Origin: a virus
Taxonomy: Monodnaviria; Loebvirae; Hofneiviricota; Faserviricetes; Tubulavirales; Inoviridae
Length of the DNA: 37,945 bases
IMG/VR virus record: IMGVR_UViG_2923312938_000004
Reading direction: 5' to 3' (one strand)
The translations under genes were made by a program, and so were the position numbers. Below the pieces are notes generated by a model. It had not been told where the DNA came from and searched no databases. It was given only the letters and a program-made list of their open reading frames with translations. This document shows, piece by piece, positions 4,055 to 4,191 of the stretch (within the stretch, counting starts at the first letter, position 1; the number at the start of each line of letters is the position of its first letter).

Positions 4055-4191
4055 GTTTGCACCGCAATATATTTACCGCATGCGCGCATCATAATCACAT
4101 TTAACACGTGTTGTAAATACGCATGCGCTATGCGGGTGTAAAAAAAATGGAATAATCACCTTCTATTGAAAGGACATAGAGGTAAATTTTG
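4055..4191. promoter_or_regulatory. Divergent promoter/operator region between the Rep operon and the RHH regulator
   Basis: 137-bp AT-rich spacer between divergent starts. Repeated CGCATGCGC motifs at 4077-4085 and 4120-4128 and the palindrome ACACGTGT at about 4104-4111. SD AGAGG 8 nt before the ATG at 4192. Confidence 0.5.

What the first reader, a model, noticed from the sequence alone, without database searches (positions are those of the whole stretch)
4055..4191. Divergent control region with repeated CGCATGCGC and ACACGTGT palindromes between Rep and an RHH regulator
The RHH-type regulator (ATG at 4192) is transcribed away from the Rep operon, the same arrangement as rstR versus rstA in CTXphi. 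The 137-bp spacer contains two CGCATGCGC motifs and a perfect ACACGTGT palindrome, which are plausible operator sites for a lysogeny or replication switch.
Basis: inference. Interest (0 to 1): 0.5.

Follow-up and report, generated by a model that had tools for sequence, protein, structure and literature searches.

The report
Filamentous-phage repressor/Rep promoter switch region
This 137-bp stretch is the divergent promoter/operator region of an E. coli filamentous prophage, a homologue of the rstR–rstA "ig-2" immunity switch of the cholera-toxin phage; it is an ordinary new member of a known kind of switch.

Summary
The spacer 4055-4191 holds two CGCATGCGC copies (4077, 4120) and ACACGTGT (4104), in all five tandem copies of an ~8.27-kb dif-integrating filamentous phage.

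The window's Rep is an RstA homologue. The divergent 70-aa regulator is 68-70% identical to proteins annotated RstR in some CTXphi/pre-CTXphi records and in Vibrio phages VAI1/VAI2. So the CTXphi analogy is homology.

Orthologous cassettes from E. coli, Xenorhabdus, Arsenophonus, Photorhabdus, Gilliamella and Vibrio align without gaps. They conserve:
- a leftward promoter (-35 TTTACA, N18, -10 TATGAT);
- the box TGTAAATACGCATGCG upstream of that -35;
- a CATGC box at the predicted transcription start;
- an extended -10 for the regulator gene.

The cassette travels with three unrelated Rep families, so the boxes belong to the regulator and not to a replication origin.

The ACACGTGT palindrome is not conserved. 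It sits on a degenerate third GCATG box that is hypervariable among near-identical E. coli prophages.

The RHH fold is likely but unproven: a family profile matches ParG at 80% probability, and no Pfam hit reaches threshold.

Best explanation: the regulator represses the Rep-operon promoter through the GCATGC boxes. No binding was tested. Verdict: new member of a known kind, modest interest.

The parts
4055..4191 (.). Divergent control region (homologue of CTXphi ig-2) between orf65/Rep operon and the regulator gene. Further copies start at 12324, 20584, 28851 and 37120.
   Evidence: gapless alignment with relatives
4077..4084 (.). L box, the 8-bp palindrome CGCATGCG. It overlaps the predicted start (about 4081) of the leftward promoter. 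The core CATGC is conserved in the family.
   Evidence: position relative to the promoter
4085..4092 (.). L2, a contiguous second 8-bp box CGCATCAT that overlaps the -10 of the leftward promoter. 'CAT' is conserved in the family.
   Evidence: tandem 8-bp boxes are also seen in Vibrio relatives and in the paralogous cassette of L027
4088..4093 (-). -10 hexamer TATGAT of the Rep-operon promoter (P_rep)
   Evidence: 10 of 12 matches to consensus; conserved in relatives
4112..4117 (-). -35 hexamer TTTACA of P_rep, part of the invariant TGTAAATA
4104..4111 (.). ACACGTGT palindrome. It is a degenerate, hypervariable third box (M); the family consensus here is GCATGT. It lies in the P_rep spacer next to the -35.
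4070..4076 (.). TATTTAC, left arm of an inverted repeat with GTAAATA at 4113-4119. In the family consensus the repeat is 14-15 bp (TATTTACAnCATGC ... GCATGnTGTAAATA).
4120..4127 (.). R box CGCATGCG, the most conserved box (unit TGTAAATACGCATGCG). It lies between the two back-to-back promoters.
4148..4156 (+). Predicted extended -10 (TG-G-AATAAT) of the regulator promoter (P_reg), with no good -35
   Evidence: a -10-like hexamer lies 23 nt after the R box in the relatives read by eye
4178..4182 (+). Shine-Dalgarno AGAGG of the regulator gene
4192..4473 (+). Regulator ORF as it reads in copy 1: 93 aa, because a 7-A run causes a frameshift. The intact 70-aa gene is at 12460-12672 and in copies 3-5.
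   Evidence: WP_000712390.1 in RefSeq prophages
4489..4512 (+). Terminator-like hairpin followed by a T-run, downstream of the regulator gene
3857..4054 (-). orf65, first gene of the leftward operon (PHROG 3104, function unknown). Its end overlaps the Rep start.
2661..3887 (-). Rep (Rep_trans PF02486), homologue of CTXphi RstA. The RefSeq start corresponds to 3857.

Best explanation
The spacer is the immunity and replication switch of a CTXphi-like, dif-integrating filamentous prophage of E. coli. It is a homologue of the rstR-ig-2-rstA module.

Two back-to-back sigma-70 promoters sit in it:
- P_rep points left. Its -35 is TTTACA (4117-4112), the spacer is 18 nt, its -10 is TATGAT (4093-4088), and the start is near 4081. 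It drives orf65, Rep (RstA-like), an ssDNA-binding-like gene and the virion genes.
- P_reg points right. It is an extended -10 promoter, TGgAATAAT (4148-4156), with a start near 4163. It drives the 70-aa regulator.

The regulator is probably a ribbon-helix-helix dimer. I infer that it binds the palindromic GCATGC-type boxes:
- L/L2 (4077-4092) covers the P_rep -10 and start.
- R (4120-4127) lies just upstream of the P_rep -35, about -40 from the P_reg start.
- The weak, variable M box (4104-4111) lies in between.

L and R are 43 bp apart, about four helical turns, so they face the same side of the DNA. Occupying them would shut off Rep-operon transcription. That would hold replication and virion production down and give immunity to phages carrying the same operator. 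Occupancy of R would also autoregulate P_reg; the direction is unknown.

Shown here: the motifs, the promoters, their conservation, and the homologies. Inferred: binding, repression and cooperativity.
For: Identity of the element:
- The window is about 4.6 tandem copies of an 8.27-kb inovirus genome (Rep_trans, Phage_Coat_A, Zot and Secretin domains).
- Near-identical prophages lie next to hipBA in 31 of 5426 complete E. coli genomes, with 1-4 places per genome.

Homology to the CTXphi switch:
- Rep is 33% identical to RstA over 92% of its length.
- The regulator is 68-70% identical to proteins annotated 'RstR' or 'RstR-like' in CTXphi, pre-CTXphi and VAI1/2.
- Their ig-2 regions keep TGTAAATA flanked by GCATGC-type boxes.

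Promoters:
- P_rep matches the consensus at 10 of 12 positions. TTTACA-N18-TATNAT is the top-scoring - strand site in 10 of 14 lineages.
- An extended -10 for the regulator gene recurs at the same place in at least 6 lineages.

Conservation of the boxes:
- Twelve lineages align without gaps. Information peaks fall at AATATTTAC, CATGC, CAT, GCATGT and TGTAAATACGCATGC, and the L-to-R spacing is fixed while the sequence between them diverges.
- Matches to CGCATGCG with up to 2 mismatches number 25 in 13 control regions, against 8.2 +/- 2.9 in shuffles.

Link to the regulator rather than to Rep:
- The cassette is found with Rep_trans, with Phage_CRI/G2P_X_C and with Phage_GPA initiators.
- The strand-like N-terminus DTTVRINE is invariant across orthologues.
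- A 42%-identical paralogue with a different N-terminus (KAIAITE) sits next to a divergent region full of a different 8-bp palindrome, TGTTAACA, in contiguous 8-bp boxes.

Fold:
- The family profile matches ParG (an RHH protein) at 80% probability, E 1.4e-5, over the strand and both helices.
- ParG is the most frequent weak Pfam hit, in 8 of 71 members.

Precedent:
- RstR alleles repress their own ig-2/rstA promoters in an allele-specific way (PMC11509585).
Against: - No binding or expression data exist for this protein or this DNA.
- The RHH fold is not established. Pfam, NCBIfam and PDB sequence searches give nothing significant. The AlphaFold monomer is only moderately confident (pLDDT 71), and fold searches were uninformative.
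- The left box is a full CGCATGCG only in the E. coli lineage. Elsewhere only CATGC is kept, and part of that conservation could come from promoter or leader constraints.
- The conserved left TATTTAC has no role in this model.
- P_reg lacks a -35, and its start site is only predicted.
- Unlike CTXphi-ET, the spacer has no LexA box, so the induction route is unknown.
Confidence: 0.75

Rival explanations
1. The conserved repeats are a single-stranded-DNA structural element of the phage, such as a complementary-strand origin, a packaging signal or a Rep nick site, and not a repressor operator. The inverted repeat TATTTAC..CATGC / GCATG..GTAAATA would fold into a hairpin in the viral strand.
For: - The family consensus contains a 14-15 bp inverted repeat. 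In the window, arms of 7-11 nt are found.
- The viral-sense strand of the spacer folds at -19.4 kcal/mol, z = -2.1.
Against: - The z-score is modest; 6 of 200 shuffles fold as well.
- The inverted repeat is degenerate in the E. coli lineage and absent in the Vibrio clade, which keeps the GCATGC boxes instead.
- The cassette travels with three unrelated Rep families, which argues against a Rep-specific origin.
- P_rep has the viral strand as its non-template strand, which is the wrong polarity for priming (inference).
- Stronger hairpins and dif-like sites lie in the 4480-5776 region.
Confidence: 0.07
2. The conservation reflects only the two promoters and the short mRNA leader. The GCATGC boxes are not protein-binding sites, or they are bound by a host factor and not by the 70-aa protein.
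For: - The best-conserved block, TGTAAATA, contains the -35, and L2 overlaps the -10.
- YpfPhi, another enterobacterial filamentous phage, is controlled by the host regulator RovA at its replication-gene promoter (PMC4266046).
Against: - CGCATGCG directly upstream of the -35 and CATGC at +1 are not promoter elements, yet they are among the most conserved columns.
- The boxes are enriched about three-fold over shuffles across lineages.
- They persist across hosts as distant as Vibrio, Gilliamella and E. coli together with an invariant regulator N-terminus.
- A paralogous regulator comes with a different palindrome.
- No LexA or CRP consensus is present.
Confidence: 0.1
3. The protein binds the boxes but acts mainly as an activator or autoregulator of its own promoter, or as an anti-repressor or Cro-like factor. 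It is not the repressor of the Rep operon.
For: - The R box is centred about 40 bp upstream of the predicted P_reg start, a position typical of activators (inference).
- P_reg lacks a -35.
Against: - The L/L2 boxes cover the P_rep -10 and start.
- Proteins annotated as homologues in CTXphi are called repressors of rstA transcription.
- RstR alleles tested so far repress ig-2 promoters (PMC11509585).
- The two roles are not mutually exclusive.
Confidence: 0.08

Closest known systems
CTXphi RstR / ig-2 / PrstA immunity switch (Vibrio cholerae), in particular the minor rstR allele of CTXphi VC106 (GU942563) and pre-CTX 17449 (KR063268), and the 'RstR-like' gene of V. anguillarum phages VAI1/VAI2
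   Same: - A small regulator is transcribed divergently from an RstA-type (Rep_trans) initiator.
- The regulator is 68-70% identical, and Rep is 33% identical to RstA.
- The intergenic region keeps TGTAAATA flanked by CGCAT/GCATGC boxes.
- The phage integrates at dif as tandem arrays.

   Different: - The host is E. coli.
- An extra 65-aa ORF precedes Rep.
- The left site is one full CGCATGCG plus CGCATCAT, where the Vibrio phages have CGCATATT-GCATGCGC.
- There is no rstC, no ctxAB and no LexA box.
- The well-studied RstR-ET/classical alleles are unrelated in sequence to this family. That they are helix-turn-helix proteins is from my own knowledge.
- The operators of this allele have not been mapped in any paper I could find.
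Ribbon-helix-helix repressors with arrays of short boxes (ParG of plasmid TP228; MetJ, CopG, Arc)
   Same: - A small protein with a basic N-terminal strand-like segment of alternating hydrophobic residues, followed by two helices and a G-x-x-T loop.
- The family profile aligns with the whole ParG RHH domain.
- The candidate sites are short palindromes, in places arranged as contiguous 8-bp boxes. This resembles MetJ metboxes and the ParG tetramer-box arrays, which I recall from my own knowledge.
   Different: - No significant Pfam or PDB sequence hit.
- The loop between the helices is longer, and there is a third C-terminal helix in the model.
- There is no partner ATPase or toxin gene.
- Dimerisation and the DNA-binding mode are untested.
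Pf4r repressor of Pseudomonas phage Pf4; YPO2273 of YpfPhi/CUS-1
   Same: Each is a repressor or putative repressor gene beside the replication module of an integrative filamentous phage. It gives superinfection immunity, and mutations upstream of the repressor gene accompany superinfective variants (PMC8402870, PMC4266046).
   Different: - Pf4r is a P2 C-type helix-turn-helix protein (PMC8402870).
- The window has no nucleotide match in the phage collection, which I assume (unverified) holds these phages.
- YPO2273 was not compared directly.

Membership tests
CTXphi-type RstR/ig-2/RstA replication-immunity module | Small regulator gene transcribed divergently from the replication-initiator operon, with a short intergenic region between them | tested here: met
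   ORFs and RefSeq annotation; 137-bp spacer
CTXphi-type RstR/ig-2/RstA replication-immunity module | The initiator is an RstA homologue (Rep_trans) | tested here: met
   PF02486 at E 1.5e-21; tblastn 33% identity over 92% to RstA in 130 phage records
CTXphi-type RstR/ig-2/RstA replication-immunity module | The regulator is homologous to a described RstR allele | tested here: met
   68% identity to 'rstR: RstR' of GU942563, KR063268 and GQ466608/11, and 70% to the VAI1/2 'RstR-like' protein. Which named allele this is (probably the rstR-4*/4** group) could not be checked, because AF133307 is not in the collections.
CTXphi-type RstR/ig-2/RstA replication-immunity module | The regulator binds operators in the intergenic region and represses the rstA-type promoter, giving allele-specific immunity | not testable with these tools
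   Only indirect support: conserved boxes bracket the promoter. Other alleles were tested experimentally in PMC11509585.
CTXphi-type RstR/ig-2/RstA replication-immunity module | LexA co-repression of the rep promoter (a feature of CTXphi-ET) | tested here: not met
   No CTGT-N8-ACAG or relaxed LexA box in 3950-4300. This feature belongs to the ET allele and does not define the module.
CTXphi-type RstR/ig-2/RstA replication-immunity module | XerCD/dif-dependent integration, often as tandem prophages | tested here: inconclusive
   Tandem arrays next to hipBA, which is the dif region by my knowledge of the K-12 map. By eye, inverted dif-like sequences lie at about 4882-4910 and 4949-4980, but a dif pattern with up to 3 mismatches found nothing.
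Ribbon-helix-helix (RHH) DNA-binding superfamily | Significant sequence or profile match to an RHH family | tested here: inconclusive
   No Pfam or NCBIfam hit at threshold. ParG (PF09274) is a weak hit in 8 of 71 family members, best E 0.019. ParG 1p94 scores E 0.26 in the PDB profile search. hhalign of the family profile against ParG gives 80% probability, E 1.4e-5, 42 columns.
Ribbon-helix-helix (RHH) DNA-binding superfamily | Strand-helix-helix topology | tested here: inconclusive
Ribbon-helix-helix (RHH) DNA-binding superfamily | Obligate dimer whose paired N-terminal strands enter the major groove | not testable with these tools
   Only single chains can be modelled here
Ribbon-helix-helix (RHH) DNA-binding superfamily | Operators built from repeated short sub-sites, with specificity set by the N-terminal strand | tested here: met
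   GCATGC-type boxes are repeated 2-5 times per region. The paralogue with strand KAIAITE is associated with TGTTAACA boxes, and the paralogue with TTMAIVTE with (T)GCATGCA boxes. This is a correlation, not a demonstration of binding.

The most novel reading that the evidence does not exclude
The regulator plus its roughly 110-bp promoter/operator block is a portable RHH-type immunity cassette.
- It has been exchanged between filamentous phages of Vibrio, Enterobacterales and Gilliamella across three unrelated replication-initiator families.
- Some phages stack two cassettes, or carry an extra, operator-less copy of a repressor, which would exclude competitor phages.
- Within E. coli, the hypervariable third box (4105-4111, the 'ACACGTGT' site) would be under diversifying selection. 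It would tune or escape repression without any change in the repressor.
Probability: 0.2. Interest if true: 0.5.

Novelty: new member of a known kind. Interest (0 to 1): 0.3.

Why it matters
- It identifies the control switch of a filamentous prophage that is carried in tandem arrays at the chromosome terminus of about 0.5% of complete E. coli genomes, including ETEC E24377A.
- It links that switch by homology to a poorly studied rstR allele of the cholera-toxin phage.
- It gives concrete, testable operator boxes, promoter positions and a likely fold for a regulator family (PHROG 2503) that is currently annotated as hypothetical.
- If confirmed, one set of experiments would explain immunity in E. 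coli, Vibrio, Xenorhabdus, Photorhabdus, Arsenophonus and Gilliamella inoviruses.
- It does not change how such switches are understood.

Tried and rejected
- Megablast of the whole phage unit against deposited phage genomes found no match. Homology to CTXphi shows only at protein level.
- Pfam, NCBIfam, a PDB sequence search and hhalign against CopG gave nothing significant for the regulator.
- A scan of viral contigs for TGTAAATACGCATGC returned 35 loci. Apart from those already found through the protein, they showed unrelated flanks and looked like chance matches.
- The genome-contig scan with the regulator alignment gave only 3 loci.
- Rfam found no RNA family in the unit.
- No LexA or CRP boxes are present.
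- An exact-pattern dif search with up to 3 mismatches found nothing.
- A rightward promoter using the left TTTACC/TTTACA as its -35 was rejected, because no conserved -10 lies at the right distance.
- The + strand site GTGAGA-N16-TATATT was not recovered among the top-scoring + strand sites in the relatives.
- I tried to name the rstR allele. AF452586 and AF133307 are not in the collections, and searches for the accession numbers found no paper naming the allele.
- Simple helical-phase or 8-bp-period rules do not fit all boxes: L to L2 is 8 bp, M to R is 15 bp and L to R is 43 bp. I make no claim about periodicity beyond the contiguous boxes.

Full report
**What the window is.** The 37,945-base window is about 4.6 head-to-tail copies of an ~8.27-kb filamentous-phage genome. 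The control region recurs at 4055, 12324, 20584, 28851 and 37120.
- On the - strand each unit carries, in order: a 65-aa ORF, a Rep_trans initiator, an ssDNA-binding-like gene, small coat genes, a Phage_Coat_A pIII, a pVI-like gene, Zot/pI and a secretin pIV.
- On the + strand it carries a small regulator gene followed by a terminator-like hairpin.
- Near-identical prophages occur in 31 of 5426 complete E. coli genomes, at 1-4 places each. They lie next to hipBA, for example in ETEC E24377A.
- The copies in the window differ by single-base indels. One of these makes the regulator ORF of copy 1 read 93 aa, against 70 aa in the other four copies and in RefSeq.

**The observation.** The spacer 4055-4191 is 137 bp.
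- CGCATGCGC lies at 4077 and 4120. ACACGTGT lies at 4104 and is part of AACACGTGTT.
- CGCATGCG is itself a palindrome and occurs nowhere else in the phage unit.
- The shuffle statistics overstate significance, because the five copies are not independent.
- A single 8-bp palindrome in 137 bp is expected about once in two such spacers.
- The gene that borders the spacer on the left is the 65-aa ORF, not Rep itself.

**What it is: homology.**
- Rep is 33% identical over 92% of its length to RstA of CTXphi and pre-CTXphi.
- The 70-aa regulator has no Pfam or NCBIfam family and falls in PHROG 2503, of unknown function.
- tblastn against deposited phage genomes finds it at 68% identity in genes annotated 'rstR: RstR' in CTXphi of strain VC106 and in pre-CTX of strain 17449. 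It is at 70% identity in the 'RstR-like' gene of V. anguillarum phages VAI1 and VAI2.
- The GU942563 record describes its gene as a repressor of rstA transcription, similar to RstR proteins of non-O1/non-O139 strains. This suggests the rstR-4*/4** group, which I could not verify.
- RstR alleles are known to bind ig-2 and to repress the rstA promoter in an allele-specific manner (PMC11509585).

**Comparison of control regions.** Orthologues of the regulator (38 clusters) led to loci from Xenorhabdus, Arsenophonus, Photorhabdus, Gilliamella, Salmonella-like and Vibrio phages, and from metagenomes.
- The regions upstream of the regulator gene align without a single gap over about 100 bp when anchored on TGTAAATA.
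- Information content peaks at AATATTTAC, CATGC, CAT, GCATGT and TGTAAATACGCATGC. The sequence between these peaks is free to vary.
- On the - strand, TTTACA-N18-TAT(C/G)AT is the promoter found by the consensus scan in the window (10 of 12 matches). It is the top - strand site in 10 of 14 lineages.
- The predicted start of that promoter falls inside the left CGCATGCG. The contiguous CGCATCAT overlaps the -10. The right CGCATGCG abuts the -35 on its upstream side.
- A -10-like hexamer, often with a TG extension, lies at a fixed distance downstream of the right box in most lineages. In the window it is TGgAATAAT at 4148-4156. I take it to be the regulator's promoter.
- Matches to CGCATGCG with up to 2 mismatches are three-fold enriched over shuffles across 13 control regions: 25 against 8.2 +/- 2.9.
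- The right box is close to invariant. The left box is a full copy only in the E. coli lineage; elsewhere only CATGC is kept.

**Regulator or Rep?** The same regulator and control block are joined to three unrelated initiators:
- Rep_trans in the window, Photorhabdus and others;
- Phage_CRI/G2P_X_C in Gilliamella;
- Phage_GPA in a chicken E. coli isolate and in metagenome contigs.

A Rep-specific origin is therefore unlikely. Three further points tie the boxes to the regulator:
- The N-terminal segment DTTVRINE is invariant in all orthologues.
- In L027, a 42%-identical paralogue with KAIAITE at that place sits next to a divergent region with contiguous TGTTAACA boxes.
- In L039, a paralogue with TTMAIVTE sits next to (T)GCATGCA boxes.

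This co-variation is what a strand-reading repressor would predict, but it is a correlation.

**The ACACGTGT palindrome.**
- It is absent from every relative.
- Among E. coli-type copies that are otherwise about 98-100% identical over the spacer, the seven positions 4105-4111 carry at least seven alleles, all differing by transitions. Only about a dozen other variable sites occur in 360 nt.
- The family consensus at this place is GCATGT, a third box. All E. coli alleles have lost its central A.
- The palindrome is therefore an accident of one allele at a degenerate, fast-changing sub-site.
- Why this site varies so much is unexplained.

**The fold.**
- A search of 1.84 billion representative proteins widened the family to 78 clusters.
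- Their profile aligns with the complete RHH domain of ParG at 80% probability, E 1.4e-5.
- ParG is also the most frequent weak Pfam hit, in 8 of 71 members, and the second hit in the PDB profile search.
- The AlphaFold monomer (pLDDT 71) has an extended N-terminus and helices at 16-33, 39-46 and 51-69.
- Structure searches were uninformative.
- I rate RHH as likely, at roughly three in four, but not shown.

**Rivals.**
- The viral-sense strand of the spacer can fold (-19.4 kcal/mol, z = -2.1), and the family consensus contains a 14-15 bp inverted repeat. However, the repeat is weak in E. coli and missing in the Vibrio clade, and the polarity is wrong for priming.
- Conservation through promoter constraints alone does not explain the boxes outside the hexamers.
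- A role mainly as an activator of its own promoter is compatible with the position of the right box, but it does not exclude repression of P_rep.
- No LexA or CRP site is present.

**Verdict.** This is a real, conserved promoter/operator region and a new member of the RstR/ig-2 kind of switch. It has a probably RHH-type repressor and GCATGC-type boxes. The mechanism is inferred and not demonstrated. Interest is modest.

Noticed in passing
window 4105-4111 (and the same place in L002, L007, L009, L012, L026, L077-L079): A mutational hotspot. At least seven alleles (CACGTGT, TGCGTGT, CACGTAT, TGTGTGT, TGCGCGT, CGCGTGT, TGCGTGC), all differing by transitions, occur in prophage copies that are otherwise near-identical and encode the same regulator. 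AATGCGTGTT to AACACGTGTT is a two-base change that creates a perfect 10-bp palindrome, which hints at template-switch mutagenesis.
   Followed up: partly
L027 2747-3213 (also L028-L030); L039 2640-3210; L076 5138-5598: Some phages carry two regulators in tandem. In L027 a 60-aa paralogue has its own TGTTAACA-rich control region and is followed by a 93%-identical copy of the window's regulator with no operator region of its own. This could be immunity against a competitor phage. L039 has two complete cassettes. In L076 and L027 a further small ORF downstream (MPTKHINDV...) resembles the N-terminus encoded by the rstR-calc primer in PMC11509585.
   Followed up: partly
L017/L018 (Gilliamella), L037, L076, L027 compared with window 2661-3887: The regulator/operator cassette is joined to three unrelated replication-initiator families (Rep_trans, Phage_CRI/G2P_X_C, Phage_GPA). 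This indicates modular exchange of the immunity block.
   Followed up: yes
window about 4882-4910 and about 4949-4980: Two inverted dif-like sequences (AGTGCGCACAATGACGTTATGTGTAAA and the reverse complement of CCAGTGCGCATAATGTGTTACACGTTATG) flank a GC-rich hairpin. They look like a CTXphi-type folded attP for XerCD integration. The prophage lies by hipBA in E. coli genomes.
   Followed up: partly
window 5039-5076 and 5347-5378 (- strand): Two copies of a long hairpin (GGCG(C)CTTATAACTTTCCCAGGTTATAAGGCG) followed by T-runs lie inside a duplicated ~300-bp segment of the 1.3-kb non-coding region. Their function is unknown.
   Followed up: no
window 4384-4391 compared with 12652-12659; ORF lists for copies 2-4: The tandem copies differ by single-base indels that break ORFs. 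The regulator reads 93 aa in copy 1, and pIII and Zot are split in copies 2-4. The one examined base by base is a homopolymer-length change, which suggests long-read errors rather than biology.
   Followed up: partly
L083 883-1074 (Escherichia phage If1, NC_001954, 'major intergenic region'): If1 has an unannotated 64-aa ORF (MATPKRTTMAIVAERKLKLERLAIDASHTAGRAITWTDIVNHLIDNYAKD...) in its annotated intergenic region. The ORF belongs to this regulator family. By eye, neighbouring ORFs resemble IS200/IS605 TnpA and TnpB.
   Followed up: partly
L080/L081 (KR063268, GU942563) rstR annotation: The deposited 86-aa RstR of these CTXphi/pre-CTX records starts at an ATG inside the conserved operator box (ATGCACGCATGCGG). 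The family alignment and the VAI2 annotation indicate a 64-aa protein starting at MEKRGDTTV.
   Followed up: partly
window 4706-4879 (+): A small 57-aa ORF with a hydrophobic stretch, probably a membrane protein, lies downstream of the regulator's terminator. It is annotated as hypothetical in E24377A and has a weak sub-threshold resemblance to Fst-type toxins (E 0.039).
   Followed up: no
window 4091-4101 and 4152-4162: The direct repeat ATAATCAC(A/C)TT coincides with the -10 regions of the two divergent promoters. It was not tested for conservation across relatives.
   Followed up: no
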